A DNA stretch of 17,818 nt, from IMG/VR virus record IMGVR_UViG_2713896903_000004. One strand, written 5' to 3'. A program made the translations under genes and the position numbers. Below the pieces are notes generated by a model. That model was given only the letters and a program-made list of their open reading frames with translations, was not told where the DNA came from and did no database searches. This DNA comes from a virus. Taxonomy: Duplodnaviria; Heunggongvirae; Uroviricota; Caudoviricetes. This document shows, piece by piece, positions 1,097-17,674 of the stretch (position 1 is its first letter; every line of letters starts with the position of its first letter).

Positions 1097-2272
1097 ATGG
1101 ATATAACTTGTTTAGAATGTGGCAATGTTCTTGACGACCCAACTGTAGCTTGCGATAAATGCGGTGCCACGCCTCATGTTGTAGTGCTGGGCAAACAATC
1201 GTACTTTCCTATTGGTGCTGTAACAGCAAATCTTGAAAAAAATGATTCAAGAGCATTTGATTATCGATTAGGTGAAGTTTGGGATCTAAAAAATGAAGTC
1301 ACATCTGAATTCATAACCAGAATTGAGAAAAAATTTAGCCGAAAAAACAAATTTCATAACTTCCTAGACTCAGATCACAACCCTTCATCCATTCCTACGA
1401 TCCTAAAAAAATACATTAATAAAAATAATGAATTCATTGATTTATCTAGAGCTATAATAGAGAGGCTTAAACATAATGCTAATAACGAATCGAGAGTTGC
1501 CCAACTTCAGGGGGGGAGCGTTGTTTTCATCCACTATAAGTCTACCGAACCAGAGGATTTGGGGAAACTTCTAATCGTAATGGTTGATAAACAAAGCGCC
1601 TATGACTTTGATTCGGATAAGTTGACCCCAACAAGATTAAATCCAATTAATACCGATGCCTTACGGCAGGCTGCGATGTTCGATTTAACTTTATTCGAAG
1701 CCAGTTATCCAGAAAACAAGGGTGACTCATATGTACATTTCTTGCAAGGTAAATCTAAAAGCGATTTTTTCAAAGACTCATTAGGTTGCCGACATGATTC
1801 GGACAATAAAAGAAGCATTCAGCAATTATTCAGTGCTATAGATATTTTTGCTAGTAAAAACTCACTCGGTCGTGTACTGCGTGATACTATTGACAATGAA
1901 GTTAAATCCTTACTGGAAAAAAAATCAAAAGATAAACACGGAAATAAGTCCGTTAAGATAGAGGATATTTCAAAAATAATTGACTCATGCCTGACTGATT
2001 CACACAAATGTAAGGGAACGTTTGTCGATTTTGTTAATCTTAATGGTTTCCAGATTGACCCTCAATTTGAACCAACTCCTAAAGCAGCTGAAAGCGCGCT
2101 TACAATTGAAGTGGCAGATAACGACAATAATTTTAAGTTGAAAATAATGCGTGGAGCTATTGGAGACGAAAAGTCAAATAAGCCTGTAATTCTCACTGAC
2201 AACAAATGCGAAATTGTGATAAAATTGAGTCAGGCAAATTATGATGAACTCAAAAGATATAGAGACAGCTAA
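1097..2272 (+). CDS. Hypothetical protein with N-terminal C4 zinc ribbon; possible NdpA/YejK-like (nucleoid-associated) central region
   Basis: 391-aa ORF in an AT-rich block. CxxC...CxxC at residues 5, 8, 19, 22 (CLECGNVLDDPTVACDKCG). The central segment (GGSVVFIHYKS..., YVHFLQGKSKSDFF) resembles my recollection of the YejK/NdpA family but is unverified. Stop TAA is 2 nt before the next ATG. Confidence 0.8.
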   Translation: MDITCLECGNVLDDPTVACDKCGATPHVVVLGKQSYFPIGAVTANLEKNDSRAFDYRLGEVWDLKNEVTSEFITRIEKKFSRKNKFHNFLDSDHNPSSIPTILKKYINKNNEFIDLSRAIIERLKHNANNESRVAQLQGGSVVFIHYKSTEPEDLGKLLIVMVDKQSAYDFDSDKLTPTRLNPINTDALRQAAMFDLTLFEASYPENKGDSYVHFLQGKSKSDFFKDSLGCRHDSDNKRSIQQLFSAIDIFASKNSLGRVLRDTIDNEVKSLLEKKSKDKHGNKSVKIEDISKIIDSCLTDSHKCKGTFVDFVNLNGFQIDPQFEPTPKAAESALTIEVADNDNNFKLKIMRGAIGDEKSNKPVILTDNKCEIVIKLSQANYDELKRYRDS

Positions 2273-2274
2273 TA

Positions 2275-3489
2275 ATGACAATTGCTGATGACTTATCAAG
2301 ATTAGCGCAGATTATTAACGGAGCCTCAAGCAGAGTTGAGGGCTACTACACTGTCATAAGTCTTGAAGAAAGCATTGTTATTGTAAATAGTTCTGAAATA
2401 ATTAGACTGTTACAATCTATAGGTTATAAAAAGGCAACAACCTGCATCGAAAATAATGAAATTTGGCTAGATCGCCAAGCTTCATCTTGGGATGACGCTA
2501 TAATTTATGAGAATGTTGAGTCTTTTTGGTCTAGAGTAAACACCCAAAACGCTCTTCCGAAAAATTATATCATCGGAACGCCGTTAATACTCCCTACTTC
2601 TAAGAATGAAAGCATCGAAAAAATCCATATTTTCTTTATGTGGAAAGATATCCTTTCATTAATTGCTGATCATCATAACAGTGACTGCTCTGTCTTATTT
2701 TTCACCAATGAAGACAAAAGTTATACAGTCGAACTCACGCATTTTTTACAATATAGCGAGATTAATCGCTTATCGAACTCGTCTCTTAAATATGAAATTA
2801 TAAAGGAGCTTCTCGACACAATAAAAATCAATGATTTACACAAAAGCGAGCGCAAGCTCGTTATACGCTCAGCCATAAACGAAGTATTTAAAGCAAATGG
2901 TACGTTCAATTTCTTTGACTTGCTTAACTCTACTGAACTCGTCAGGAAAAAATATGATGAACTATATGAGATTTACACAAAGAGGTTTTCTGTAAATAAA
3001 ATTCTTAACGAACTCGATGAGAAAAATCTTGAGTTCACGAGTAAAATTAACGAATTCATATCATCTAATCAGACAAAAGCATTGACTATTCCCGGTGCAT
3101 TAATAGCAGCTGGTGGCTTAGTGAAGGCTAATGAAACAACCGAAGCAATATTGATTATCGCAGGACTTTGGATGATAAAAAAAGTCAATTACATTTCTAT
3201 TGAGATATTCAATGAAACATTCGACAACTTACGTTCTCGAGTGGAGTCCGCTTTCGATAAGTATTTAAAGTTTGAAGAAAATAAAGAAATCAAAGATAAT
3301 GCAGATAGTATTAAGAGTAGCATTACAGGTTTGATTGATAAAGCTAAAAAAAGGATGAGAACTGTTAAATATCTCGCATCAGCCATGTTTTATGGAGGCC
3401 TTATTTACGTTGGATATAAGCAGTTCCCAGTCTTTTTTGAAAAATCGGCAGTAAATCTATTTTATTTTTTATGCCATACTATAAGCTAA
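2275..3489 (+). CDS. Hypothetical protein with C-terminal hydrophobic (possibly membrane-inserting) segments
   Basis: 404-aa ORF translationally coupled to the upstream gene. Hydrophobic stretches LTIPGALIAAGGLV, AILIIAGLWMI and LASAMFYGGLIYVGY in the last third. No recognisable catalytic motif. Its last 21 nt overlap the 3' end of Q on the other strand. Confidence 0.8.
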   Translation: MTIADDLSRLAQIINGASSRVEGYYTVISLEESIVIVNSSEIIRLLQSIGYKKATTCIENNEIWLDRQASSWDDAIIYENVESFWSRVNTQNALPKNYIIGTPLILPTSKNESIEKIHIFFMWKDILSLIADHHNSDCSVLFFTNEDKSYTVELTHFLQYSEINRLSNSSLKYEIIKELLDTIKINDLHKSERKLVIRSAINEVFKANGTFNFFDLLNSTELVRKKYDELYEIYTKRFSVNKILNELDEKNLEFTSKINEFISSNQTKALTIPGALIAAGGLVKANETTEAILIIAGLWMIKKVNYISIEIFNETFDNLRSRVESAFDKYLKFEENKEIKDNADSIKSSITGLIDKAKKRMRTVKYLASAMFYGGLIYVGYKQFPVFFEKSAVNLFYFLCHTIS

Positions 3490-3825
3490 CATTGCTAAAC
3501 AGCCGTCAACAAACCCCATTGCAGTTTGCAGTTCCTTCCTAATTGTGCCATCAGAGCATTTTCTCTTCTTCGCAATAGTGCGTAATGAGATACCGATAAC
3601 AAAGTGGGCGATGATGAGCTCATATTCCTCTGGTTTATACCTTCTCAACCGAGCCACACAACTGTCTATCATGATGCCTTCATCATCATCGCACTGGAGA
3701 CGTGACTTTTTACCGTGTGGTAGAAGCCCCTTGAAACCAGCCGCTATCGGCTGCCAGTCGACACCACTATTTTCTGCTGCAGCCCAAGCCCCCCAACGAT
3801 CTAAAACTTCGTACATATCACGCAT
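3469..3825 (-). CDS. Late-gene antiterminator Q (small QuuD-type Q family)
   Basis: 118-aa ORF MRDMYEVLDRWGAWAA...IAAGFKGL...CSDGTIRKELQ matches my memory of the DLP12 QuuD-type Q family. GGAGG about 10 nt upstream of the ATG. Positioned between replication genes and the lysis cassette. Confidence 0.75.
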   Translation of the reverse strand: MRDMYEVLDRWGAWAAAENSGVDWQPIAAGFKGLLPHGKKSRLQCDDDEGIMIDSCVARLRRYKPEEYELIIAHFVIGISLRTIAKKRKCSDGTIRKELQTAMGFVDGCLAMLAYSMA

Positions 3826-6355: not shown

Positions 6356-7180
6356 TCAGAATGTCAGTTTGTCACTGGATTTACCGAATTTGTCAGACAT
6401 GGCTCCCAGGCCAGCCAGGACATCGACCTGTCGCTGTCGCCCACCTCCGGGAGCGGCTGGCTGTTGCCAGAATTCTTCGAAGTGACGATCGGGTCCAAAG
6501 AACGTCGCAGCCTGCTTCACGAACTGTGTGCCGGTATTTCCTGTAGCACGTACCCAGGCGGCATACCGCTTCACGCCATCAAGCATGGTCTCCGGTTTTA
6601 TTCCCTCCCTGAGACGGGCTTTCCAGGCTTTGAAGGCTGCCGACTTGGAATTGCCACCAGCACGTTTGGGATATTCCTGCCAGGCCTGTTCAAATTCCGG
6701 TGAATATTCCTGTCGGGCAGAGCGCGCTGGTGCAGACGCGTCAGCGGGTGCGCCAATTGTTGGTTCATTGACTGGTTCTTTGACTGGTTCAAAAGAGTGA
6801 CTGGTTCTGGGTGAATCTCCTGCACTACCCCCTGGTGCAACTCCTGCACCACCTGGTGAATTTGCTGCACTAGGTAGTGAATTATTTGCACTACCACCTG
6901 GTGAATCTTTTGCACCATCAAGACGAAGAAGATAAATATTGCTCGAGTTCCCTTTTTCACCTTTCCGGGAAACTTTTTTTACCAGTCCCGATTCACAAAG
7001 AGCCGTAATATGATTCATCACAGAACGTTTGCTAATCTCGCACTGATCAGCAATATGCTGATAGCTGGGCCAGCACTCGCCCTGATCGCTGGCATTATCA
7101 GCCAGCTTAATCAGAACCAGTTTTCGCAACGGATTTCCCACGCGAATTTTCATCGCTTTCACCATCAGCTCCATGCTCAT
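6356..7180 (-). CDS. Replication initiator (O-like; N-terminal winged-helix, repetitive linker, C-terminal domain)
   Basis: 274-aa ORF. N-terminal HTH-like region (SYQHIADQCEISKRSVMNHITALCESGLV). A low-complexity Gly/Ser/Pro/Ala linker is encoded by the iteron DNA. GGAGG upstream. Precedes the DnaC/DnaB-like genes as in lambdoid replication modules. Confidence 0.7.
   Translation of the reverse strand: MSMELMVKAMKIRVGNPLRKLVLIKLADNASDQGECWPSYQHIADQCEISKRSVMNHITALCESGLVKKVSRKGEKGNSSNIYLLRLDGAKDSPGGSANNSLPSAANSPGGAGVAPGGSAGDSPRTSHSFEPVKEPVNEPTIGAPADASAPARSARQEYSPEFEQAWQEYPKRAGGNSKSAAFKAWKARLREGIKPETMLDGVKRYAAWVRATGNTGTQFVKQAATFFGPDRHFEEFWQQPAAPGGGRQRQVDVLAGLGAMSDKFGKSSDKLTF
6761..6916. repeat. 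Iteron array inside the initiator gene (putative origin of replication)
   Basis: Three copies of TGACTGGTTC (6769-6778, 6781-6790, 6799-6808), then about five tandem ~21-bp units of the form GGTGAAT-N-TGCAC-N-CCT (6810-6916). A more AT-rich stretch follows at ~6920-6990. Confidence 0.55.
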
Positions 7181-7401
7181 AACACACCTCCCAGGCGTTT
7201 AAACATTTTTCCGGACTGAAACACCACCAGTGGGTAACTGATGGTGTAGTTACGCCCCAGTAATTCACACACGACTTTCTGGCTTTCGGTGCTGACCAGG
7301 CAAACCCGCAGAACGTGACCGTTGCTGGTGGCGAACCACTGCCCCACACGGGGGCAACGGTTGTATCGGTGATACAGGGAATTAACGACGCGGCGAATCA
7401 T
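7177..7401 (-). CDS. Hypothetical small protein (74 aa, Cys-containing) immediately upstream of the initiator gene
   Basis: ATG at 7401 with strong SD GGGAGGTG 7 nt upstream. ATGA overlaps with both the upstream 220-aa gene stop and the initiator start. The track's longer 79-aa version lacks an RBS. Confidence 0.5.
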   Translation of the reverse strand: MIRRVVNSLYHRYNRCPRVGQWFATSNGHVLRVCLVSTESQKVVCELLGRNYTISYPLVVFQSGKMFKRLGGVL

Positions 7402-8060
7402 GGGCGCACCTCCCATTGATTACGGCGGAAAGCGGTGTGACTGAGACTGGTTTCAGTTTCATGGAATGCTTCAATGCAGCTCTCGTAGTACCGCATTGTG
7501 CGCAGACTTAACCCAAGCTGAAGCATCATCAGGCCATCAAGGGTGATGTAATAACCACGCAGGGAGTCACCATAGATGTGATAAGTACCCGGTATGAAAT
7601 TGCGGGTAAAAAATTCGCGCGAGCAGTTCAGATACTCGATTTTGTCGACGATGTTCTGGTGCATGCGCTTGAAATGGCAGGCAACATGCAGGGAGAAAAT
7701 AACGGCCTTGCCGTTGACGACTTCGATTTTCAGGTATGGGGAAGTTGGGACAGTAGCCATGATGGCAGCCTCCTTGATCGGTGAAATACTTCCACCACCG
7801 GAAACGCCAATTTCGCTGGTGGTGAACTGAACGGGGTTGGCGTAACCGGTGATCAAGGAAACCGGCGCATCTTTCGATGCCCCCGCCCAGCCCACCATAA
7901 CTTTGATGTGAGCAAATGCGGACGATAAAAAAGACGCTGGCGCGTCATATATCGCCTTGATCAATTCCAGGACGCCAATCCCGGCACCCGCTTTATAAGG
8001 TGCAGAGACAGTGTAACGTCCCGAAATTGCAGAATCAATATTTAGGATTGAAACATTCAT
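7398..8060 (-). CDS. Hypothetical protein (220 aa) occupying the cII slot
   Basis: 663-nt ORF in ~50% GC DNA, co-oriented and coupled with the downstream early genes. No recognisable HTH or catalytic motif. Weak RBS at the annotated ATG. Confidence 0.6.
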   Translation of the reverse strand: MNVSILNIDSAISGRYTVSAPYKAGAGIGVLELIKAIYDAPASFLSSAFAHIKVMVGWAGASKDAPVSLITGYANPVQFTTSEIGVSGGGSISPIKEAAIMATVPTSPYLKIEVVNGKAVIFSLHVACHFKRMHQNIVDKIEYLNCSREFFTRNFIPGTYHIYGDSLRGYYITLDGLMMLQLGLSLRTMRYYESCIEAFHETETSLSHTAFRRNQWEVRP

Positions 8061-8137
8061 ATGCTTACTGGTATTTTTGTTAACGTTCTTGGATTCTTGG
8101 GCCTGCTTTATGCAGTTGCCTGTATCAACGTTGAGCG

Positions 8138-8163
8138 AGCCGGGTCACTACCCGGCTTTTTTT
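8138..8163 (+). terminator. Intrinsic terminator oriented for + strand transcripts (antisense to the early-right operon)
   Basis: 8-bp stem agccgggt / acccggct with loop cact, followed by tttttt (8158-8163) on the + strand. On the minus strand the hairpin is followed by cgcucaacg, with no U tract. Overlaps the Rha stop codon. Confidence 0.55.
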
Positions 8164-8870
8164 CACCGGTGCCAGCCAATAACCTGAAATAACCCCATTT
8201 TCGGGTGATACCAGCGAGTCCCTCGCTGTTCTGCTTCCTCCATAACCCGATAAAAAGCAGCCATAAACGGTTCCACAGCAACAATTGCGCGACGTGACAA
8301 CAATCCGTCCGGCGTCATGAACTCATGGGTGTCTGTAGGAATTTGATAGGCGTTCACCAGATTGCGGCATTTATCATCTGACAAACCGGTTTTTGCTTTC
8401 AGTTGGCGATATCCGGCATAGCCCTCACGAATGTTGCCCTTTTTGATTTGCTCAACTGTTTCGGCAACGTGGCTGACTTTTTCTTCCACCTGAGTGATCC
8501 GTTTCTGCTGACGAACAGCTTCAAGAGCCATCGCGGCAACCATTTCGATTTCGCTCATTGGCTTACGGATCTGTTCTTCCAGTTCGCGCCAGCGATCTAC
8601 CAGGCGGGCTGTGAATTCGGGACAAAGCTGTGCGACGACAATGATGCTGTCGCGCTTACCTTGTTCGCCTTCGAAGATGTAAGCACCTACATTTCGTTTT
8701 AATCCTAAGTTGTTGATTATTTCGAAATTCGCCATTGGCGCACTTCGAATAATCCCCTTATCCATGAGCCTTTCAATGCTGCGCTTAACATCTTTGTGTT
8801 GGCTGCCCACCAACTCTGCGATTTCAAGGCTGGTCATGGATGCTTTGCCGTTAAAAATTGCGGTGTTCAT
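8163..8870 (-). CDS. Rha-family phage regulatory protein / antirepressor-like
   Basis: 235-aa ORF. N-terminus MNTAIFNGKASMTSLEIAELVGSQHKDVKRSIERL is typical of the phage Rha domain as I remember it. GGAG 8 nt upstream. ATGA overlap with the cro-like stop. Confidence 0.7.
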   Translation of the reverse strand: MNTAIFNGKASMTSLEIAELVGSQHKDVKRSIERLMDKGIIRSAPMANFEIINNLGLKRNVGAYIFEGEQGKRDSIIVVAQLCPEFTARLVDRWRELEEQIRKPMSEIEMVAAMALEAVRQQKRITQVEEKVSHVAETVEQIKKGNIREGYAGYRQLKAKTGLSDDKCRNLVNAYQIPTDTHEFMTPDGLLSRRAIVAVEPFMAAFYRVMEEAEQRGTRWYHPKMGLFQVIGWHR

Positions 8871-9130
8871 TGTTGGTCTCCTGTGGGCTTGTCATCTTCT
8901 GTGTGCGCTAAGCTTGGATGTGGAAAAAGCTCTGGTAGGTCTGGACGAAATTCATACGCTTGGATCTTTCCGTCGACAGCTGCAACCAATAACGGCACAA
9001 ATTCTGGTGAAATCTTGTTCTTGCAGTTCAACCAATCGCAGACTGTTGACTGGGCCTTTCCGCATCGCTTGGCTAAGGCTTGCTGACTTCCAAGAATCTC
9101 AATAGCTTTCTCTATGGCTTTATGTTTCAT
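8867..9130 (-). CDS. Cro/YdaS-like HTH regulator
   Basis: 87-aa product from the ATG at 9130 (SD GGAG 9 nt upstream). HTH-like LGSQQALAKRCGKAQSTVCDWLN. Divergent from the repressor gene across a ~120-bp operator region. The track's longer 104-aa version has no RBS. Confidence 0.65.
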   Translation of the reverse strand: MKHKAIEKAIEILGSQQALAKRCGKAQSTVCDWLNCKNKISPEFVPLLVAAVDGKIQAYEFRPDLPELFPHPSLAHTEDDKPTGDQQ

Positions 9131-9152
9131 AATCGCATCTCCTATTGAACGC

Positions 9153-9181
9153 ATAATAACAACAGGAAAAGCGATATTCAA
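9153..9181 (-). promoter_or_regulatory. PR-like early-right promoter (TTGAAT-17-TATTAT) driving the cro-like gene
   Basis: On the minus strand, -35 TTGAAT (9181..9176) and -10 TATTAT (9158..9153) with a 17-nt spacer, ~20 nt upstream of the cro-like SD. Confidence 0.5.
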
Positions 9182-9249: not shown

Positions 9250-9942
9250 ATGACATTTTCAGAACGACTTGATTTAGCTATGCGCAACGCAAAATTTACG
9301 CAAGGTAGGCTGGCCAAAGAAGTGGGTATGGCTCAGTCCAGTGTTAATCAACTACTTAACAAAGCCAACGGTTCCAGAAAAACAGTCGAAATAGCAAAAG
9401 TTTTGGGCGTTAACCCGGAATGGCTCGCATCGGGTGTTGGTCCAATGGAAATCGTGACCTCTGCAGACTCACACCAAATACGTAACATTTCTGAAGATTG
9501 GGTTACTGATTCGTATGTCGTGGATGTTTTAGACATCAGATATAGTTGCGGACCTGGTAGTTATAACTCTGATTTTCCTGACATTGTCAGATCTATAGCG
9601 ATAGAACCAGGATACGCATCAAGAGTTTTTGGCGGCAGACCAGCATCAGCAATCAAAGCAATAAACGCCCACGGCGACAGTATGAAAGGCACAATAGACC
9701 CTGAAGACTTGGTATTTGTAGATGTATCAGTTCGCACATTTAATGGTGATGGTATATACGCCTTTACATACTCTGGAACATCGCACATCAAAAGACTTCA
9801 AAAAATCAAAGATACTCTAACGGTGATATCTGACAACCCAGCTTACAAGGATTGGGCTATCGAACCGGAAGACTTCGAACAACTTCACATTGACGGAAAA
9901 GTAATTGTCAGTTGGCCTATGACACTACACCGTTTTGCATAA
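9250..9942 (+). CDS. CI-like prophage repressor (N-terminal HTH, C-terminal LexA/S24 autopeptidase domain)
   Basis: 230-aa ORF with GGAGG upstream. HTH-like QGRLAKEVGMAQSSVNQLLN. C-terminal S24-like motifs GDSM (Ser) and a downstream KRL (Lys). Confidence 0.85.
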   Translation: MTFSERLDLAMRNAKFTQGRLAKEVGMAQSSVNQLLNKANGSRKTVEIAKVLGVNPEWLASGVGPMEIVTSADSHQIRNISEDWVTDSYVVDVLDIRYSCGPGSYNSDFPDIVRSIAIEPGYASRVFGGRPASAIKAINAHGDSMKGTIDPEDLVFVDVSVRTFNGDGIYAFTYSGTSHIKRLQKIKDTLTVISDNPAYKDWAIEPEDFEQLHIDGKVIVSWPMTLHRFA

Positions 9943-12217: not shown

Positions 12218-12406
12218 ATGAGACTGTATTTCACAATAGTAATTTTACTGGCAATTATCGCATGCATTTACGGATTACTCGTTCCGTTCCTTATATCCAT
12301 GAAGGATACGATAGCAGTTATTTCTGGCTTTGCACTGGCGTTTCTGACCCCGCCCTGCATTTATGCCATTTACAAGGGTCTTTCTTTCACTAAGGATAAA
12401 AGATGA
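12218..12406 (+). CDS. Small membrane protein (62 aa, two hydrophobic helices)
   Basis: Hydrophobic stretches FTIVILLAIIACIYGLLVPFLI and VISGFALAFLTPPCIYAIY. Its stop overlaps the SPFH gene start (ATGA). Confidence 0.5.
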   Translation: MRLYFTIVILLAIIACIYGLLVPFLISMKDTIAVISGFALAFLTPPCIYAIYKGLSFTKDKR

Positions 12407-13230
12407 AAAAAATTATTTTTGCTTTAGCCATTGTTCTGCCGACTATTGGCCTCGTCGGTTGCGATCGCGTTGAACCAGGTAATGTTGGCATCAAGGTAAA
12501 TAAACTGGGCGACGACAAAGGCGTCGGTGAGGTGGTCGGTGTTGGTCGCTACTGGACAGGCTGGAACACTGAAGTTTATATCTTCCCGACCTTTAAGCAG
12601 ATGAAGACCTACGATGATCCATTCAGTTTCCAGATGAGCGATGGAACAACCATTGGTTACCACATCGGAGTAGCCTACAAGGTTGATCCATCCAAAGTTA
12701 CCACGGTGTTTCAAACCTACCGCAAAGGTGTGGATGACATTACCGACACCGACCTGCGCCAGAAGATAGCAGATGCACTAAATCGGCTGGCCAGCAAAAT
12801 GACCACCGACAAATTTATCGACGGCGGCAAGTCTGAGCTGCTGGATGCAGCTCTAAAAGATATTCAGGCAGAAATGACGCCCATCGGTATTCAGGTAATG
12901 AGCCTGTCTTATGTAGGTAAACCGGAGTACCCGCCAACCGTTATCGACAGCATTAACGCCAAAGTCACGGCAAACCAGAAAACCCTGCAACGCGAGCAGG
13001 AAGTAAAACAGCGCGAAGCGGAAGCCAACATGTTGCGTGCGGAGGCTGCCGGACAGGCAGATGCAATTCGCACAAAAGCTCAGGCCGAAGCCGATGCTAT
13101 TCGTTTACGCGGTGAAGCTCTGCGCCAGAACCCCGGTGTTATGGAGCTGGAAGCCATCAATAAATGGAACGGCACACTGCCGCAATACATGACCAGCGGT
13201 GCCAATACACCATTTATCCAGGTTAAATAA
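12403..13230 (+). CDS. SPFH/band-7 (prohibitin/HflC-like) domain lipoprotein
   Basis: Signal peptide with lipobox LVGC (MKKIIFALAIVLPTIGLVGC). SPFH-like core and an Ala/Glu/Arg/Gln-rich coiled-coil tail (QREAEANMLRAEAAGQADAIRTKAQAEADAIRLRGEALRQ). SD AAGGA upstream. Confidence 0.75.
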   Translation: MKKIIFALAIVLPTIGLVGCDRVEPGNVGIKVNKLGDDKGVGEVVGVGRYWTGWNTEVYIFPTFKQMKTYDDPFSFQMSDGTTIGYHIGVAYKVDPSKVTTVFQTYRKGVDDITDTDLRQKIADALNRLASKMTTDKFIDGGKSELLDAALKDIQAEMTPIGIQVMSLSYVGKPEYPPTVIDSINAKVTANQKTLQREQEVKQREAEANMLRAEAAGQADAIRTKAQAEADAIRLRGEALRQNPGVMELEAINKWNGTLPQYMTSGANTPFIQVK

Positions 13231-13237
13231 CTTATAT

Positions 13238-13256
13238 GCCCGGCAGGCCGCCGGGC
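13238..13256 (+). other. GC-rich hairpin after the SPFH gene (no U tract; weak terminator or RNA-stability element)
   Basis: Stem gcccggc / gccgggc with loop aggcc, followed by taagggaaaag. Confidence 0.3.
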
Positions 13257-13270
13257 TAAGGGAAAAGCAG

Positions 13271-13630
13271 ATGAACACCCATAATGCCCAACCGCAAATA
13301 ATGAACTATGACCCGAATCTGACGTCATGCGGACGCATGGCAAAACAAACCGTTCGATTAACTTTCGGGTTATGGGAATACCGCGAAACATTCGAAGTCA
13401 CTGTCGGTGGCAACCTGACCGGACTCGATGTTATCAGTTGCGCTATTGAAAGCCTGTACGCAACGCTGCCTTATGAAGAAGTCGAGGATGAGCGCGATAT
13501 CATCGCCACCATTAATATCGGCGGCGTGAAATGCAAGGATGAAAACTTGATCGGAGAACTCTGGCTTGCCGGGATGCTTATCTCTGCAGAAATTATCAGT
13601 ATTGAACCCGCTACAAACATACCGCTCTGA
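13271..13630 (+). CDS. Hypothetical protein (119 aa)
   Basis: ATG at 13271, in frame with the longer track ORF 13199-13630. AAGGG-like SD upstream. Confidence 0.55.
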   Translation: MNTHNAQPQIMNYDPNLTSCGRMAKQTVRLTFGLWEYRETFEVTVGGNLTGLDVISCAIESLYATLPYEEVEDERDIIATINIGGVKCKDENLIGELWLAGMLISAEIISIEPATNIPL

Positions 13631-13661
13631 AGTTCTCACAACTCAGGGAACAGGAGAAAAA

Positions 13662-13904
13662 ATGTTCGCTTTGATTAATCAAGGGCAACTGTATACCGAC
13701 AGTGCCGGTTACCCGGTAAAAATTATTCGCTGCATAAATAACATCGTGTTGTACAGAAGAATGGATGGGCGAACACAGTCGGTAAAAATAAACGATTTTA
13801 ATGAACTGTTTGAACGGATCGCTCACCAGGAATACCGACAAATTCTGGCAGAAACAGAGCAGGAAGCTCATCTGAAAAAATTACGAGCCATGAAAAGGAA
13901 GTAA
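13662..13904 (+). CDS. Hypothetical protein (80 aa)
   Basis: ATG at 13662 with SD AGGAG upstream, in frame with track ORF 13566-13904. Confidence 0.5.
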   Translation: MFALINQGQLYTDSAGYPVKIIRCINNIVLYRRMDGRTQSVKINDFNELFERIAHQEYRQILAETEQEAHLKKLRAMKRK

Positions 13905-13907
13905 AGA

Positions 13908-14054
13908 ATGAATAAAGCATTTGAACGATGGGTCCACCAGCGTTACGGCAATCGCTATGACCTGACACGAGATGTCGACGGTTTCTACTGTCGTGAAATT
14001 GTGAAACGAATGTTTGAAGTGTGGTGCCACTGCCGCGGACTGAGTGTTGTGTGA
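13908..14054 (+). CDS. Small hypothetical Cys/His-containing protein (48 aa)
   Basis: ATG at 13908 with SD AGGAAG upstream. Contains FYCREIVKRMFEVWCHCRG. Below the track size cut-off. Confidence 0.3.
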   Translation: MNKAFERWVHQRYGNRYDLTRDVDGFYCREIVKRMFEVWCHCRGLSVV

Positions 14055-14061
14055 GGGAAAT

Positions 14062-14298
14062 ATGGGGAATGTGATTCAACTGGCTCCCAATGAATGGGTG
14101 TGTGAAAGCGTTCTTATCGCGATTACCGGACTCAAACCAGGCACAATTCTTCGGGCCCGGAAAGAATGCTGGATGGTTGGAAAAGAGTATATTCACGTAT
14201 CACCAGACGGTAATCCAAAGCCTTCCAGCGAGTGTATGTATAACAGAAAAGCAATAGATGCTTGGGTCGCTTCAATGAAAAACAAACAACCTGGGTGA
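14062..14298 (+). CDS. xis: Excisionase-like protein (Xis)
   Basis: 78 aa from the ATG at 14062 (SD GAGGG). The segment ITGLKPGTILRARKECWMVGKEYIHVSPDGNPKPSSECMYN matches my memory of the lambdoid-prophage excisionase family. Lies immediately upstream of int. Confidence 0.6.
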   Translation: MGNVIQLAPNEWVCESVLIAITGLKPGTILRARKECWMVGKEYIHVSPDGNPKPSSECMYNRKAIDAWVASMKNKQPG

Positions 14299-14353
14299 TT
14301 TAATGCCATGAAGTATGTAATCTCGTATCGCTCTTGGGCGTCTGGAGGTATCA

Positions 14354-15667
14354 ATGGATAAAGTCAAATATCCAACAGGCGTCGAAAACCACGGCGGCAC
14401 ATTACGCATCTGGTTTAATTTTAAAGGTAAACGTGTCAGGGAAAATCTTGGTGTCCCTGACACTGCCAAGAACAGGAAGATCGCCGGGGAACTACGGACA
14501 TCGGTATGTTTTGCCATCCGCACAGGAAGCTTTGATTATGCTGCACAGTTCCCTGACTCCCCTAACCTTCAGGCTTTTGGGGTAAGTAAAAAAGAAATTA
14601 CGGTGAAAGAACTTGAAGAAAAATGGCTGGATCTGAAACGAATGGAAATCTCTGCAAATGCATTCAATCGCTATGAATCCGTTGCAAGAACGATGGTTCC
14701 GAAAATTGGAGGCAGCAGACTGGTGTCATCGGTAACTAAAGAGGAATTGCTGTATATCAGGAAAGATTTGCTGACCGGGTATCAGAATTCAACGAAAAAC
14801 AAAGCAGCAGCAAAAGGACGGAGCGTCGTTACTGTAAATTATTACATGACGACAATCGCTGGAATGTTTCAGTTTGCTGCAGATCACGGTTACTTAGAAG
14901 CAAATCCCTTCCAGGGAATTAAGCCTCTTAAAAGAGCCAGGGCAGAGCCAGATCCGCTAACTCGTGACGAATTTATTCGCCTGATAGATGCTTGCCGACA
15001 TCAGCAGACGAAAAACCTGTGGTCATTGGCTGTGTACACAGGAATGCGTCACGGTGAACTGGTCTCCCTGGCCTGGGAAGATATCGATCTGAAAGCAGGA
15101 ACTATTACTATCAGGCGCAATTATACGAAACTCGGTGAGTTCACTCTACCTAAAACTGAAGCAAGTACAAACAGGGTTGTGCATCTTATCCAGCCCGCTA
15201 TCAGTGTCCTGAAAAATCAGGCTGAAATGACAAGACTGGGTAAGCAGCACCACATCAAGGTTCAACTACGTGAATATGGGCGTTCAGTGAATCATGAATG
15301 TACTTTCGTATTTAACCCCCAGGTGGTTAGAAAAAGCAAACAGGTCGGTTTTATCTACAAGGTAGATTCTATTGGCGACTCATGGGAAACAGCCATTAAG
15401 CGTGCGGGCATCAGGCACCGGAAAGCATACCAGTCACGACACACTTATGCGTGCTGGTCGTTATCTGCCGGAGCAAATCCAAGCTTCATTGCCAGCCAGA
15501 TGGGCCATGCAAGTGCCCAGATGGTGTTCAATGTATACGGAGCATGGATGACTGACAGTAATGCAGAACAGATCGCAATGCTGAATCAGAAGCTGGCAGA
15601 TTATGTCCCAATGATGCCCCATAGTCACCAAAATGGCACAAAAGGCTTATTAAAATCAGTAAGTTAA
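14354..15667 (+). CDS. int: Tyrosine integrase (lambda/Rac-type with N-terminal arm-binding domain)
   Basis: 437-aa ORF with SD GGAGG 5 nt upstream. Catalytic-domain motifs TGMRHGEL, SRHTYACW and the tyrosine region NVYGAWM. Adjacent to the host junction. Confidence 0.9.
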   Translation: MDKVKYPTGVENHGGTLRIWFNFKGKRVRENLGVPDTAKNRKIAGELRTSVCFAIRTGSFDYAAQFPDSPNLQAFGVSKKEITVKELEEKWLDLKRMEISANAFNRYESVARTMVPKIGGSRLVSSVTKEELLYIRKDLLTGYQNSTKNKAAAKGRSVVTVNYYMTTIAGMFQFAADHGYLEANPFQGIKPLKRARAEPDPLTRDEFIRLIDACRHQQTKNLWSLAVYTGMRHGELVSLAWEDIDLKAGTITIRRNYTKLGEFTLPKTEASTNRVVHLIQPAISVLKNQAEMTRLGKQHHIKVQLREYGRSVNHECTFVFNPQVVRKSKQVGFIYKVDSIGDSWETAIKRAGIRHRKAYQSRHTYACWSLSAGANPSFIASQMGHASAQMVFNVYGAWMTDSNAEQIAMLNQKLADYVPMMPHSHQNGTKGLLKSVS

Positions 15668-15675
15668 TCCTTAAT

Positions 15676-16095
15676 ACCCGTCATGTTAACTGCGTAGAGG
15701 GCAACACTACTCTGTATGCACTGCCGAAAGCGGAAGTTGTGCTGCGCTGGCGTGAGCAAACCAGCGACGATTTCCGTTTTTGTTTTAAGTTCCCGGCAAC
15801 TATTTCGCATCAGGCTGCATTACGTCATTGCGACGATTTAGTGACAGAGTTTTTCACCCGTATGTCGCCGCTGGCACCACGCATTGGGCAATTCTGGCTG
15901 CAATTACCCGCTACCTTCGGTCCACGGGATCTGCCTGCGCTTTGGCATTTTCTCGATACTCTACCTGGCGAGTTTACCTACGGTGTGGAAGTTCGCCATC
16001 CGCTATTTTTTGCCAAAGGGGAAGAAGAACAAACGCTTAATCGCGGCTTGCATCAACGTGGCGTTAATAGGGTAATACTAATCAGACACGTTTAA
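15676..16095 (+). pseudogene. yecE: Start-less internal fragment of a host DUF72-family gene (yecE-like), bounded by two integrated elements
   Basis: The reading frame is open from directly after the int stop, with no ATG or RBS. The product (…NCVEGNTTLYALPKAEVVLRWREQTSDDFRFCFKFPATISH…) resembles my recollection of E. coli YecE. A stop follows shortly after the sequence changes character near 16075. Confidence 0.5.
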
Positions 16096-16150
16096 ATACA
16101 CCATCCAAAGCGATACAATCACACTATTAGTTTTTTATGGTGTATAAACT

Positions 16151-17674
16151 ATGAAACGTGCAATCAGTTACATCCGATTCAGTTCTGAGAAGCAATCCCG
16201 AGGTGATTCACTACGCCGACAATCGAAGTTGGTCACTGACTGGCTTAAAGCTCGTCCTGAGTATCATCTAGATGAATCTCTTACCTTCCGTGATTTGGGG
16301 AAAAGTGCTTTTAGCGGTAAGCACTTGAAAGGTGGCTTAGGCGACTTCTTAACCGCTATTGAGAAAGGGCTTGTAAGAGCTGGTGATACGCTCTTGATAG
16401 AGTCTCTTGACCGTCTGTCACGGCAAGATGTAGACCGAGCAAGTGAACTACTCAGAAACATCCTTCGCTCTGGTGTCGATGTGGTCACATTATCCGATAA
16501 TGAACACTACACAAAGGAATCTCTTAAAGACCCGTTAGCCTTGATTAAGTCAATCCTGATTATGCAACGAGCGCATGAGGAAAGTTTGAGGAAGTCTGAG
16601 CGTATACAGGCTGCATGGGATGCAAAGAAAGAAGCCGCTAAAGCTGGTATCAAGATTTCTAAGCGTTGCCCTGCATGGCTTAAGCTTAATAATGACCGTA
16701 AAAGTTTCTCTGTAATCCCTGAGAAGGTAGCGACGGTAAAGCGATGCTTCCAGCTACGGTTAGAGGGTAAGTCTATCTTGGAAATTGTCAGAACTCTTAA
16801 TAGTGAGGGACATCAGACGCTTAACCAGTACAAAGCGGGTAAATTTAGTCAGACTTCTGTGCAAGACCTTTTGAAGAATCGCTCTGTAATTGGTTATTTC
16901 ACCCCCAAAGGCTGTGAAGAAATTTCAAACTATTACCCCTCTATCATCCCTGAGACTGATTTCTACAAAGTCCAGCAACTATCATATCCTCGTTACGGTA
17001 GAAAACCTGCTTCAGATAAACCATTGAGTGTGAATCTTTTCAAGGGTGTTATCCGTTGTTCTGAATGTGGTCATGCTCTGATTATCACAGGCTTTAGCGA
17101 TACAAGGAACGGGATATATCGCTGCCCTCTTCGTAATGAAAACCGTTGCAGTGCTAAGGGTCTGTCACGTAAGCAAACTGATGGAACATTACTTGCTTTG
17201 CTCTCTCGTCTTGACCGATTTGAGAATGGTACAACGAATGCCATTGATACACTGAAGCTACACCGTGAACACATTTCAAACAATATTGAGAAGCTGGTAC
17301 AACTCTCACTTGAAGTCGAAGACCTGACCGCTATTACCAGCAAGTTAAAACAGTTAAAGGGGGAGTTATCACAGGTTGATGCTGATATTGAGAAGGAGGC
17401 ACAACGCCTTAAATCTATTGACGTGGGTTGTTTGTCTGATTGTGACTTGAGTACAAAGGCGGGAAGGATTGAAGCACAACTGATTATTCGTAGTGCTGTT
17501 AAAGAAGTTGTTTTAAACACTGCTAAACGTCGCTGTAGAGTAACTTTTCACAATGGCAAGGTGATTGACCTGTCGATAACAGAAAACCCCGCTCAGGACA
17601 TTACAGAGGCTGAAAAGTCGCTTACTGAAATTGCTGAGAAGGGTCTGTTAGATGTTGACGCCTTCCAACTGTAG
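16151..17674 (+). CDS. Large serine recombinase (resolvase-type catalytic domain, recombinase domain, zinc ribbon, coiled coil)
   Basis: 507-aa ORF. N-terminal ISYIRFSSEKQ...SLRRQ with the catalytic Ser in RFSS. Cys cluster CSECGH...CPLRNENRC. C-terminal coiled-coil region. Confidence 0.85.
   Translation: MKRAISYIRFSSEKQSRGDSLRRQSKLVTDWLKARPEYHLDESLTFRDLGKSAFSGKHLKGGLGDFLTAIEKGLVRAGDTLLIESLDRLSRQDVDRASELLRNILRSGVDVVTLSDNEHYTKESLKDPLALIKSILIMQRAHEESLRKSERIQAAWDAKKEAAKAGIKISKRCPAWLKLNNDRKSFSVIPEKVATVKRCFQLRLEGKSILEIVRTLNSEGHQTLNQYKAGKFSQTSVQDLLKNRSVIGYFTPKGCEEISNYYPSIIPETDFYKVQQLSYPRYGRKPASDKPLSVNLFKGVIRCSECGHALIITGFSDTRNGIYRCPLRNENRCSAKGLSRKQTDGTLLALLSRLDRFENGTTNAIDTLKLHREHISNNIEKLVQLSLEVEDLTAITSKLKQLKGELSQVDADIEKEAQRLKSIDVGCLSDCDLSTKAGRIEAQLIIRSAVKEVVLNTAKRRCRVTFHNGKVIDLSITENPAQDITEAEKSLTEIAEKGLLDVDAFQL

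What the first reader, a model, noticed from the sequence alone, without database searches (positions are those of the whole stretch)
7398..8060. Uncharacterised 220-aa gene in the position normally held by cII
Lambdoid phages usually have a small HTH regulator between cro and the replication genes. Here a 220-aa protein with no recognisable HTH or enzymatic motif sits in that slot, coupled to a 74-aa Cys-containing ORF. Its RBS is weak. It could be a lysis-lysogeny regulator of a different fold or an accessory function.
Basis: inference. Interest (0 to 1): 0.45.

Follow-up and report, generated by a model that had tools for sequence, protein, structure and literature searches.

The report
RNA immunity cassette inside a phage ORF
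The "uncharacterised 220-aa gene" is a known kind of phage switch: its first 100 codons overlie a promoter and two small regulatory RNAs (IsrK/seqA-like and C4/CI-like) that control translation of its last 120 codons, a Rha-type regulatory protein. It is therefore not a regulator with a new fold.

Summary
The ORF is real (7398..8060, minus strand, 220 aa, ATGA-coupled to a 74-aa ORF), but it is not an unknown protein.

- **RNA cassette.** Codons 8-100 coincide with a conserved, mosaic cassette. It holds a promoter, an IsrK/seqA-like sRNA (8003..7927, Rfam 64 bits) and a C4/CI-like antisense RNA (7902..7815, 82 bits). The two C4 single-stranded elements pair with target copies upstream (a1, b1) and downstream (a2, b2).
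- **Regulated start.** b2 covers a strong SD (AAGGAGG) in front of ATG 7760. The same start context is found at P4 kil and at the 73-codon ORF I take to be P1 icd.
- **Rha payload.** From ATG 7760 runs a 120-aa Rha-domain protein, the only part with a protein-coding substitution pattern (third-position excess 2.9 versus 0.91 in the cassette).
- **The "Ash domain" is translated RNA.** Pfam's model (PF10554) also matches the stop-containing translation of a P1-like c4 region and the P4 ORF that overlies CI RNA.
- **The frame is still kept open.** The long frame is stop-free in 82 of 95 independent cassettes. This matches the nested eta/kil genes of P4, so it is probably translated from pR transcripts.

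Verdict: a new member of the P1 immI / P4 immunity / Gifsy-1 isrK-orf45-anrP kind. Interest is low to moderate.

The parts
7398..8060 (-). Long ORF, 220 codons. PGAP names it 'ash family protein'. It is the positional and sequence counterpart of P4 eta. It starts 22 nt upstream of the cassette's -35 and runs in frame through the RNA cassette into the Rha-domain ORF.
   Evidence: The frame is stop-free in 82 of 95 cassettes.
8010..8038 (-). Internal sigma-70-like promoter (PisrK / PLE-like): -35 TTGATT 8038..8033, 17-nt spacer, -10 TACACT 8015..8010, predicted +1 at G 8003.
   Evidence: Read from the sequence. It sits at the same place in all 12 aligned loci, with stronger hexamers in others (TTGACG/TATATT). 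The homology block shared with other phages starts at 8039. It scores 8 of 12, below the threshold of the scan.
7927..8003 (-). IsrK / P4 seqA-like sRNA with its own intrinsic terminator (stem-loop 7946..7933, U6 7932..7927). It carries target copies a1 (UUGGCG, 7978..7973) and b1 (UGAUCAAGG, 7963..7955).
   Evidence: Rfam RF01394, 64.2 bits (GA 50), full length. The c4-a1b1 model scores 22 bits, below GA.
7815..7902 (-). C4 / P4 CI-like antisense RNA. Hairpin loop b' is CCUUGAUCA (7858..7850). Single-stranded a' is CGCCAA (7842..7837). ATG 7898..7896 (M55 of the long ORF) corresponds to the first AUG of Gifsy-1 orf45.
   Evidence: Rfam RF01695, 82.3 bits (GA 45), model positions 1-87 of 87. 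27 pairs, none broken in 12 phages including a P1-like phage and P4, and 13 pairs with compensatory changes. The orf45 mapping uses PMC4825925.
7805..7810 (-). Downstream target a2 (UUGGCG), complementary to a'.
   Evidence: a1, a' and a2 co-vary between phages (8 distinct a' regions).
7769..7779 (-). Downstream target b2 (GAUCAAGG, 7779..7772), overlapping the Shine-Dalgarno AAGGAGG (7775..7769).
   Evidence: The cognate perfect duplex with b' is 9 nt here (family mean 9.2), against 4.1 for non-cognate pairs.
7398..7760 (-). Nested ORF of 120 codons from ATG 7760 (M101). It is a Rha-domain protein and the predicted immunity-controlled product. Its start context GGAGGCTGCCATCATGGCTAC is shared with P4 kil and with the 73-codon ORF in P1-like RCS47 that I identify as icd.
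   Evidence: Coding signature pi pos1/2/3 = .059/.058/.171. PA2 annotates its gene from the equivalent ATG.
7177..7401 (-). 74-aa ORF of unknown function, translationally coupled (ATGA) with its own SD GGGAGGTG. It lies between the Rha payload and the O-like replication gene.
   Evidence: phrog_1153 E 1.3e-42. The same position is kept in Stx phages, SfV and E. coli prophages. No Pfam or PADLOC hit.
8084..8166 (+). Candidate ~80-nt antisense sRNA in the 102-nt gap between the 235-aa Rha gene and the long ORF. Promoter-like TTGAAA-18-TATTTT lies at 8048..8077. A plus-strand intrinsic terminator lies at 8137..8158, followed by T7. Whether it belongs to the module is uncertain.
   Evidence: elements kept in three sequence variants of the spacer; fold z -3.46. 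No Rfam family.

Best explanation
Window 8039..7744 (minus strand) is a self-contained RNA-immunity cassette of the P1 c4 / P4 CI type. It sits in the early-right operon between a Rha-family gene and the replication genes. The 220-codon ORF is the frame that happens to run through it.

**Shown here**
- A promoter (-35 at 8038, -10 at 8015) lies just upstream of an IsrK/seqA-like sRNA that carries its own terminator.
- Downstream lies a C4/CI-like RNA. Its two single-stranded elements, a' and b', are complementary to a1/b1 inside IsrK and to a2/b2 just downstream.
- b2 overlaps the strong SD of ATG 7760.
- Only the sequence from ATG 7760 onward evolves like a protein. It encodes a 120-aa Rha domain and is coupled to a 74-aa ORF.
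- The 'Ash domain' (residues 16-108) is the conceptual translation of the cassette.

**Inferred from the homologous, experimentally studied systems**
- In a lysogen, pR is shut by CI (9250..9942). The internal promoter still makes IsrK and, by read-through and processing, C4.
- C4 pairs with a2/b2 and hides the SD. The Rha protein is then not made, and the untranslated message is open to Rho-dependent termination, as at P4 timm. This also keeps the downstream O-like, DnaC-like, DnaB and Q genes silent.
- IsrK/a1b1 competes for C4 or remodels the leader, as shown for Gifsy-1.
- On induction, transcripts from pR carry ATG 8060. Ribosomes translating the long frame run through the cassette, prevent RNA pairing and termination, and make expression immunity-insensitive, as P4 eta does. 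The extended isoforms would be 220 aa, and possibly 166 aa from ATG 7898.
- The Rha-domain product most likely acts as an antirepressor-type or DNA-binding regulator of the lysis-lysogeny switch.
For: **RNA identity**
- C4 scores 82.3 bits and isrK 64.2 bits, both full length and above gathering score.
- The same pair is found in all 11 homologous loci, including P1-like RCS47, and in P4 itself.
- The C4 fold has 27 pairs. None is broken in 12 phages and 13 pairs show compensatory changes.

**RNA-RNA targets**
- a1/a'/a2 and b1/b'/b2 co-vary in three ways: 20 distinct combinations, and 8 a' and 7 b' regions.
- Cognate b2:b' duplexes average 9.2 nt, against 4.1 nt for non-cognate pairs.
- Nucleotide diversity peaks fall on exactly these six elements.

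**Start codon**
- SD and ATG 7760 are conserved in every locus.
- The context is identical to that of P4 kil and is present at the 73-codon ORF of P1-like RCS47.
- The mosaic junction lies at about 7744.
- PA2 and APSE-7 annotate their CDS from the equivalent ATG.

**Coding test (65 unique sequences)**
- Cassette codons 8-100: pi at positions 1/2/3 = .197/.193/.178 (ratio 0.91).
- Codons 101-220.059/.058/.171 (ratio 2.9).

**Ash domain is translated RNA**
- PF10554 scores 64.7 bits on the translated RCS47 c4 region, which contains two in-frame stops.
- It scores 59.7 bits on the P4 'cI AA1-137' ORF that overlies CI RNA.
- AF2 predicts no secondary structure for residues 1-110, although the whole model is weak.

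**The long frame is kept open**
- 82 of 95 cassettes, chosen only by the SD-ATG motif, have no stop in that frame.
- Stop counts are 32 in that frame, against 428 and 147 in the other two. In shuffles 2.6% of frames are stop-free.
- In unrelated upstream contexts an ATG with a strong SD (GGGAGGTG, AAGGAGGTG) sits 6-7 codons before the -35.
- P4 has the same nested layout: a 214-aa ORF containing the 65-aa kil.

**Experiments in relatives**
- Gifsy-1: isrK G28/G31 pair with C162/C159, which is a1:a' here. orf45 is translated and is needed for anrP. Its nucleotide sequence is conserved but its amino-acid sequence is not (PMC4825925).
- P4 timm is given as 8365-8209, which is the kil coding region (PMC3177188).

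**Rha domain:**
Against: - Nothing here shows transcription, processing or translation in this phage.
- The internal promoter is only 8 of 12 to consensus and fell below the scan threshold.
- ATG 8060 has a weak RBS in this variant, so the eta-like read-through may be inefficient here.
- The Rha hit is just under Pfam's gathering score (27.2-29.1 bits versus 29.9) and under the TIGR02681 cut-off.
- No structure could be obtained to confirm the fold, and the PDB sequence search found nothing.
- The molecular target of a Rha-only 120-aa protein is unknown. Antirepressor activity is inferred from family annotation and from AnrP and Ant, which have other domains (ORF6N/P22_AR_C in VT2-Sakai).
- The Forti 1999 eta/kil paper could not be read. 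Its content is cited from memory plus its title, and was checked only against the P4 sequence.
- The 95 cassettes are related to one another and come mostly from enterobacterial prophages.
Confidence: 0.75

Rival explanations
1. The annotation is right as it stands. The ORF encodes one genuine two-domain protein, with a folded N-terminal Ash domain plus a C-terminal Rha domain, made from ATG 8060. The RNA hits are incidental or secondary.
For: - PGAP and Pfam call it an 'ash family protein' with PF10554 plus PF09669.
- The frame is open in 82 of 95 cassettes.
- In-frame 3-nt indels occur within the cassette.
- Strong SDs precede the long-ORF start in some variants.
Against: - There is no third-position excess in codons 8-100 (0.91, against 2.9 downstream).
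- Variation is concentrated in six mutually complementary RNA elements.
- The Pfam model scores as well on a stop-interrupted P1-like c4 region, and on the P4 ORF over CI RNA, as it does here.
- P1-like, PA2, VT2-Sakai and APSE-7 homologues have stops in that frame.
- AF2 gives no secondary structure for residues 1-110 (a weak model).
Confidence: 0.08
2. Pure annotation artefact. The first 300 nt are never translated, and the only protein is the 120-aa Rha-domain product from ATG 7760. The open frame is a by-product of RNA sequence constraints and gene-caller behaviour.
For: - The RBS at 8060 is weak.
- An internal promoter and an intrinsic terminator lie inside the 'gene'.
- There is no coding signature.
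- PA2 and APSE-7 are annotated without an ORF over the RNAs.
Against: - Stops are about 5- to 13-fold depleted in this frame relative to the other two, across cassettes whose variable elements differ.
- Start codons with strong SDs recur just upstream of the cassette in unrelated contexts.
- Gifsy-1 orf45, which overlaps the C4-like RNA, is translated and is needed for anrP expression (PMC4825925).
- P4 eta is reported to be translated (title; content from memory).
Confidence: 0.25
3. A cII-type activator of lysogeny: a small DNA-binding protein that turns on cI and int transcription, as its position after cro might suggest.
For: Position between cro and the replication genes only.
Against: - Only a sub-threshold Phage_pRha match was found for the C-terminal half, and no other HTH family.
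- The protein part is a Rha domain.
- The locus is homologous to antirepressor-control cassettes whose products promote lytic growth.
- The gene directly after cro is another Rha-family gene.
Confidence: 0.02

Closest known systems
Satellite phage P4 immunity region (PLE - seqA - CI RNA - seqC, with the nested genes eta and kil and the Rho-dependent terminator timm)
   Same: - Same Rfam pair: C4 74.9 bits and isrK 60.8 bits in P4.
- Same SD-ATG context at the short nested gene.
- Same layout. A long ORF starts upstream of the constitutive promoter and runs in frame through the RNA genes into the short gene.
- Replication genes lie downstream in both.
- PF10554 hits the equivalent ORF.
   Different: - The payload here is a 120-aa Rha domain rather than the 65-aa Kil.
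- The host element is a lambdoid prophage with CI/Cro, not a satellite.
- The upstream promoter would be pR rather than PLL.
- The a and b specificity sequences differ.
- Termination and eta-like read-through are untested here.
Phage P1/P7 immI operon (c4 antisense RNA - icd - ant)
   Same: - The C4 RNA has a' and b' elements with duplicated targets a1/b1 and a2/b2, and b2 covers the SD of the first gene.
- P1-like RCS47 has isrK at 60 bits and C4 at 75 bits.
- It has the same GGAGGCTGCCATTATGGCTAC start.
   Different: - In P1-like phages the frame through c4 is interrupted by stops.
- The first gene there is a 73-codon ORF, which I identify as icd from memory, followed by ant.
- Here the first gene is itself a Rha-domain protein, in frame with the upstream ORF.
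Salmonella Gifsy-1 isrK-orf45-anrP-isrJ locus (Hershko-Shalev et al. 2016, PMC4825925)
   Same: - An IsrK sRNA with its own terminator and read-through into a C4-like RNA (STnc1160) that overlaps orf45.
- The orf45 AUG at nt 107 corresponds to ATG 7898 (nt 106) here.
- The experimentally proven G28-C162 and G31-C159 helix corresponds to a1:a' here, with a 3-nt offset.
- A Bro-network 'antirepressor-like' gene follows.
   Different: - In Gifsy-1, orf45 ends in an AUGA overlap with anrP. Here the equivalent frame is fused in frame to the payload and extended upstream past the promoter.
- The genomic location differs: near antQ there, between cro and the replication genes here.
- The payload domain in the VT2-Sakai homologue is ORF6N/P22_AR_C rather than Rha.
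Pfam PF10554 Phage_ASH / NCBI 'ash family protein'
   Same: Residues 16-108 score 65.8 bits (GA 26). PGAP gives this name to homologues that are 88-97% identical.
   Different: The 'domain' shows no amino-acid-level constraint. Its model matches stop-containing translations of bona fide RNA genes. It behaves as a translated RNA cassette, not as a protein fold. P4 epsilon, sometimes equated with Ash (bioRxiv 10.1101/2021.03.30.437493), hits PF25738 instead.
Phage lambda cII, and oop RNA for the plus-strand candidate
   Same: General map position between cro and the replication genes. A short antisense transcript with a strong terminator next to the gene that follows cro.
   Different: There is no sequence or domain relationship to CII. 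No Rfam match was found for the antisense candidate. The mechanism here is RNA-RNA occlusion of an SD.

Membership tests
Rfam RF01695 C4 antisense RNA (clan CL00128, includes P4 CI-type RNAs) | Covariance-model score at or above the gathering threshold, over the full model | tested here: met
   82.3 bits against GA 45, model positions 1-87 of 87, at 7902..7815 on the minus strand.
Rfam RF01695 C4 antisense RNA (clan CL00128, includes P4 CI-type RNAs) | A long closing helix plus two hairpins, maintained by compensatory changes | tested here: met
   27 pairs, none broken in 12 phages, and 13 pairs with changes on both sides.
Rfam RF01695 C4 antisense RNA (clan CL00128, includes P4 CI-type RNAs) | Single-stranded a' and b' elements complementary to duplicated targets upstream (a1, b1) and downstream (a2, b2), with b2 over the SD of the first gene | tested here: met
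   Perfect duplexes of 7, 7, 9 and 9 nt in the window. The three copies co-vary across 20 combinations. Cognate pairs exceed non-cognate pairs.
Rfam RF01695 C4 antisense RNA (clan CL00128, includes P4 CI-type RNAs) | Processing from a longer precursor, and repression of the downstream gene in vivo | not testable with these tools
   Needs Northern blots, RNA-seq and reporter fusions.
Rfam RF01394 isrK (P4 seqA-like leader sRNA) | Score at or above gathering, two 5' hairpins and an intrinsic terminator, located directly upstream of a C4-type RNA | tested here: met
   64.2 bits against GA 50, at 8003..7927. Terminator at 7946..7933 followed by U6. The same pairing with C4 is seen in all 11 loci and in P4.
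Rfam RF01394 isrK (P4 seqA-like leader sRNA) | Its own promoter and transcription start; Hfq binding | tested here: inconclusive
   TTGATT-17-TACACT lies at the conserved position, but it is only 8 of 12 to consensus. The TSS and Hfq binding are not testable here.
Pfam PF09669 / TIGR02681 Rha regulatory-protein domain | Profile score at or above the curated cut-off | tested here: not met
   Pfam 27.2 bits (full ORF) and 29.1 bits (C-part alone), against GA 29.9. TIGR02681 37.6 bits against 45.95. Both are marginally below the cut-offs.
Pfam PF09669 / TIGR02681 Rha regulatory-protein domain | Significant full-domain similarity to bona fide members | tested here: met
   - BLASTP E 8e-15, 32% identity over 108 aa, to the PA2 protein that scores 112 bits on PF09669.
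- phrog_518 'Rha-like' E 4e-14.
- tblastn to Rha regulators of Paenibacillus and Lactobacillus phages.
Pfam PF09669 / TIGR02681 Rha regulatory-protein domain | Winged-helix-type fold and DNA or repressor binding | tested here: inconclusive
   The AF2 model has mean pLDDT 33, so only a low-confidence beta-beta-alpha-alpha-alpha-beta pattern is visible. There is no PDB relative by sequence.
Pfam PF10554 Phage_ASH as a protein domain | Profile score at or above gathering | tested here: met
   65.8 bits against GA 26, residues 16-108.
Pfam PF10554 Phage_ASH as a protein domain | Evolves under amino-acid-level purifying selection, as a folded domain would | tested here: not met
   - The pos3/(pos1,2) diversity ratio is 0.91 in codons 8-100, against 2.9 in codons 101-220.
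- The model matches stop-interrupted P1-like c4 DNA and the P4 ORF over CI RNA.
- No predicted structure.
P4 eta/kil-type nested genes over an immunity RNA | A long ORF that starts upstream of the constitutive promoter and is in frame with a short gene whose SD lies in the downstream RNA target | tested here: met
   In the window, ATG 8060 lies upstream of the -35 at 8038, and the nested ATG 7760 follows b2/SD. P4 has the same layout. The frame is conserved in 82 of 95 cassettes.
P4 eta/kil-type nested genes over an immunity RNA | Translation of the long ORF makes downstream transcription immunity-insensitive (suppresses Rho-dependent termination) | not testable with these tools
   Needs fusions, stop-codon mutants and Rho inhibition. 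The source paper was not readable.
Lambda CII-type lysogeny activator | A small HTH activator related to CII | tested here: not met
   No CII or other HTH family was found in the Pfam, NCBIfam or PHROG scans. The protein part is a Rha domain.

The most novel reading that the evidence does not exclude
The same ~280 nt act at once as a promoter, two trans-acting RNAs with their target sites, and an open reading frame. On this reading the frame is selected only for being open, not for what it encodes. Translation from pR transcripts would be a general, P4-eta-like override of RNA immunity in many lambdoid prophages.

Two consequences would follow:
- Pfam PF10554, NCBI's 'ash family protein', and analyses that use them (for example as a marker for P4 epsilon) are really tracking an RNA gene.
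- The Rha payload would be made as nested isoforms of 220, 166 and 120 aa with different regulation.

A further unexplained item is the conserved plus-strand promoter and terminator pair at 8048..8166. It could encode an oop-like antisense RNA that gates entry of pR transcription or translation into the cassette.
Probability: 0.45. Interest if true: 0.5.

Novelty: new member of a known kind. Interest (0 to 1): 0.3.

Why it matters
**For this phage.** It identifies a second, RNA-based layer of immunity. The cassette sits directly upstream of the replication genes and Q, and it would have to be overcome for induction.

**For annotation.**
- A very common prophage 'protein family' is, over its defining domain, a translated RNA cassette. 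Matches occur in about a quarter of complete E. coli genomes, and in Stx phages, where switch behaviour affects toxin release.
- Studies that treat the Ash domain as a protein of unknown function (PMC8951638), or that use PF10554 as a marker for P4 epsilon (bioRxiv 10.1101/2021.03.30.437493), should be read with that in mind.
- The a/b specificity types seen here (8 a' and 7 b' regions, freely recombined) predict which prophages cross-regulate one another.

None of this is a new mechanism. P1, P4, N15 (from memory) and Gifsy-1 established it.

Tried and rejected
- **AlphaFold2 on the 220-aa protein** with a 25-sequence alignment gave mean pLDDT 33. This was too poor for fold searches, so none were run.
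- **PDB sequence search** of the 120-aa part found nothing.
- **PADLOC** found nothing for the 120-aa or 74-aa products.
- **Forti et al. 1999 (eta/kil)** is not held in the library. I checked the P4 sequence directly instead.
- **Literature search linking 'C4 antisense RNA' with 'Ash'** gave no paper. [quoted passage not shown]
- **cII-like function** was rejected for lack of any homology.
- **Similarity between the 120-aa protein and the neighbouring 235-aa Rha-family protein** was not detectable by BLASTP.
- **The idea that the whole N-terminal part is simply untranslated** was weakened by the stop-codon asymmetry and by the recurring SD-ATG starts.
Full report
**1. The observation**

An ATG-initiated ORF of 220 codons lies at 7398..8060 on the minus strand. 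Its stop overlaps the start of a 74-aa ORF (ATGA at 7401..7398). That ORF matches phrog_1153 and has its own GGGAGGTG Shine-Dalgarno.

The window is a prophage early region, and the operon runs on the minus strand. The gene order is:
- an S24-type CI repressor (9250..9942, plus strand), divergent from the operon;
- a cro-like gene (8867..9181);
- a 235-aa Rha-family gene (8163..8870), ATGA-coupled to cro;
- the ORF in question;
- the 74-aa ORF;
- an O-like initiator, a DnaC-like loader and a DnaB helicase;
- an 85-aa ORF;
- a Q antiterminator (3469..3825).

So the ORF is the second gene after cro, not the first.

**2. It is not an unknown protein**

Pfam finds Phage_ASH over residues 16-108 (65.8 bits). 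It also finds a Rha domain over residues 123-203, just under threshold. PHROGs place the protein in phrog_995 'transcriptional regulator' (2e-95), and NCBIfam finds TIGR02681.

Homologues are named 'ash family protein' by PGAP. They occur in Stx phages, phiP27 (L16) and SfV (orf37). DNA matches occur in 1352 of 5426 complete E. coli genomes.

The C-terminal 120 residues alone match a bona fide Rha protein of phage PA2 (BLASTP E 8e-15, 32% identity over 108 aa). They also match Rha regulators of Gram-positive phages.

**3. The key result: two RNA genes inside the ORF**

Rfam finds two RNA families inside the ORF, on the coding strand:
- C4 antisense RNA at 7902..7815 (82.3 bits, gathering score 45);
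- isrK at 8003..7927 (64.2 bits, gathering score 50).

A sub-threshold hit to the 'a1, b1 targets of C4' model is also present.

The same isrK and C4 pair is present in all eleven homologous loci I fetched, including the P1-like phage RCS47, and in satellite phage P4 itself. P1 c4 and P4 CI are the founding, experimentally established RNA repressors of this class. I cite this from my own knowledge; the titles of the P4 papers are listed.

The C4 fold has 27 pairs. None is broken in 12 phages, and 13 pairs show compensatory double changes.

**4. Anatomy, read on the minus strand**

- Promoter: -35 TTGATT (8038..8033), 17 nt, -10 TACACT (8015..8010). The predicted +1 is G 8003.
- IsrK-like RNA: carries a1 (UUGGCG, 7978..7973) in its second hairpin loop, b1 (UGAUCAAGG, 7963..7955), and an intrinsic terminator (7946..7933 plus U6).
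- C4-like RNA: hairpin loop b' (CCUUGAUCA, 7858..7850) and single-stranded a' (CGCCAA, 7842..7837).
- Downstream targets: a2 (UUGGCG, 7810..7805) and b2 (GAUCAAGG, 7779..7772).
- b2 overlaps a strong SD, AAGGAGG (7775..7769), placed 8 nt before ATG 7760. That ATG is Met101 of the ORF.

Between phages the three copies of 'a' and the three copies of 'b' change together. I found 20 combinations, built from 8 distinct a' regions and 7 distinct b' regions. Cognate b2:b' duplexes average 9.2 nt of perfect pairing, against 4.1 nt for non-cognate pairs. Nucleotide diversity along the ORF peaks at exactly these six elements.

The block shared with phages that carry other downstream genes runs from 8039 to about 7744. 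It is therefore a mosaic cassette that includes the first five or so codons after ATG 7760 ('MATVP').

The start context GGAGGCTGCCATCATGGCTAC is the same as that of P4 kil. It is also present at the 73-codon ORF in P1-like RCS47, which I identify as icd from memory. Phage PA2 annotates its Rha gene from the equivalent ATG. APSE-7 annotates the two RNAs and starts its Bro-N gene after them.

**5. Which part is protein?**

I compared 65 unique homologous ORFs from IMG/VR.

| Region | pi at codon positions 1 / 2 / 3 | Third-position ratio |
|---|---|---|
| Cassette, codons 8-100 | 0.197 / 0.193 / 0.178 | 0.91 |
| Codons 101-220 | 0.059 / 0.058 / 0.171 | 2.9 (4.7 in the first half) |

Only the Rha part evolves as a protein.

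The Pfam Ash model scores 64.7 bits on the conceptual translation of the RCS47 c4 region, which contains two in-frame stops. It scores 59.7 bits on the old P4 'cI gene product (AA 1-137)' ORF that overlies CI RNA. P4 epsilon, sometimes equated with Ash, hits a different family, PF25738.

So the 'Ash domain' is the translation of the seqA/CI/seqC-type cassette. [quoted passage not shown]

AlphaFold gave no secondary structure for residues 1-110, but the whole model was poor.

**6. The frame is nevertheless kept open**

I collected 95 unique cassettes chosen only by the SD-ATG motif.
- The frame in phase with the ATG is stop-free over the preceding 93 codons in 82 of them.
- It carries 32 stops in all, against 428 and 147 in the other two frames.
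- Only 2.6% of shuffled sequences are stop-free.

In unrelated upstream contexts an ATG with a good SD (GGGAGGTG, AAGGAGGTG) sits 6-7 codons before the -35.

P4 has the same layout. A 214-codon ORF starts upstream of PLE, runs through seqA, CI and seqC, and ends as the 65-codon kil. As I recall from Forti et al. 1999 (title seen; paper not held), this is eta. Its translation from upstream-promoter transcripts prevents Rho-dependent termination at timm and makes transcription immunity-insensitive. Kil is the first, immunity-controlled gene of PLE transcripts. timm is given as P4 8365-8209, which is the kil coding region.

In Gifsy-1, orf45 overlaps the C4-like RNA. It is translated and is required for anrP expression. 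The proven isrK G28-C162 and G31-C159 helix corresponds to a1:a' here. The orf45 AUG (nt 107) corresponds to ATG 7898, which is Met55 here.

**7. Best explanation**

*Shown here:* an internal promoter, an IsrK-like sRNA, a C4-like RNA, duplicated co-varying targets with b2 over the SD of ATG 7760, a Rha-domain payload, and a coupled 74-aa ORF.

*Inferred from the studied relatives:*
- In the lysogen the cassette's own promoter supplies C4. C4 occludes the SD, and the untranslated message is terminated. This silences the Rha protein and also the replication genes and Q that lie downstream.
- IsrK/a1b1 modulates this.
- After CI inactivation, pR transcripts carry ATG 8060. Ribosomes reading the long frame override the RNA block.
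- The Rha product probably acts as an antirepressor-type or DNA-binding regulator. Its target is unknown.

*Rivals:*
- A genuine folded Ash-Rha protein. Disfavoured.
- A never-translated 5' part. Disfavoured and by the P4 and Gifsy-1 precedents.
- A cII analogue. No support.

**8. Comparison and novelty**

The locus passes the tests I could run for membership of the C4 and isrK RNA families. It has the eta/kil-type nested layout. It differs from its relatives as follows:
- from P1, where the frame is interrupted and the payload is a 73-codon ORF followed by ant;
- from P4, where the payload is Kil and the element is a satellite;
- from Gifsy-1, where orf45 is a separate frame ending in AUGA.

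Here a Rha domain is fused in frame, and the cassette sits between cro and the replication genes of a lambdoid prophage. That C4 and isrK profiles hit 'Bro network genes', and that P4 CI lies inside one, has already been noted (PMC10111431).

I therefore rate this as a new member of a known kind. The useful by-product is the demonstration that PF10554 has no protein-level constraint. Recent papers still treat it as a protein domain or as a marker for epsilon.

Noticed in passing
window 8048..8166, + strand: A promoter-like site (TTGAAA-18-TATTTT with TG, 8048..8077) lies about 60 nt before a strong plus-strand-only intrinsic terminator (8137..8158 followed by T7). This would give an ~80-nt RNA antisense to the spacer between the 235-aa Rha gene and the cassette. 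Both elements are kept in three sequence variants of the spacer whose middle parts differ. The fold z-score is -3.46 and there is no Rfam family. It could be an oop-like antisense RNA.
   Followed up: partly
L092 (phage P4) 7888..8584; literature: Pfam PF10554 'Ash' hits the obsolete P4 'cI AA1-137' ORF that overlies CI RNA. P4 epsilon (the helper derepression protein) hits PF25738 instead. A P4-satellite survey (bioRxiv 10.1101/2021.03.30.437493) equates Ash with epsilon and uses PF10554 as the epsilon marker, so it was probably detecting the CI RNA cassette.
   Followed up: partly
L103 (two motif matches, 9647 and 10959); L028 positions ~455-600: Some prophage contigs carry two cassettes about 1.3 kb apart. 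In L028-type loci the sequence just upstream of the cassette is the 3' end of another gene like the window's 120-aa Rha ORF, with the same GGGAGGTG-ATG-'MIR' junction as the window's 74-aa ORF. This suggests tandem duplication or recombination at that junction.
   Followed up: no
window 6761..6917 (inside the O-like gene 6356..7180): Iteron-like direct repeats: TGACTGGTTC three times (6769..6808), and several copies of a ~21-22-nt unit GGTGAAT-n-TGCAC(T/C)A (6811..6917). This is probably the replication origin inside the initiator gene, as in lambda.
   Followed up: partly
window 1097..3489, + strand: Two plus-strand ORFs lie beyond Q on the opposite strand. One is a 391-aa NA37 nucleoid-associated-protein homologue (PF04245, 85.6 bits). 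The other is a 404-aa protein with no Pfam or PADLOC hit. They may be cargo or 'moron' genes.
   Followed up: partly
window 12403..17674, + strand: On the CI side there are an SPFH/Band-7 protein (12403..13230), a tyrosine integrase (14354..15667) and a large serine recombinase (16151..17674). Two different recombinases sit next to each other at one prophage end.
   Followed up: no
L012-L091, ORF nt 211-276 (window ~7850..7785): The indels inside the C4/a2 part of the cassette (ORF nt 211-276) are four 3-nt insertions. A 1-nt deletion and an 8-nt deletion around the IsrK terminator (ORF nt 112 and 135) occur in largely the same loci and together remove 9 nt, so the frame is restored. This is consistent with selection for an open frame, but those loci were picked by tblastn, so the sample is biased.
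   Followed up: partly
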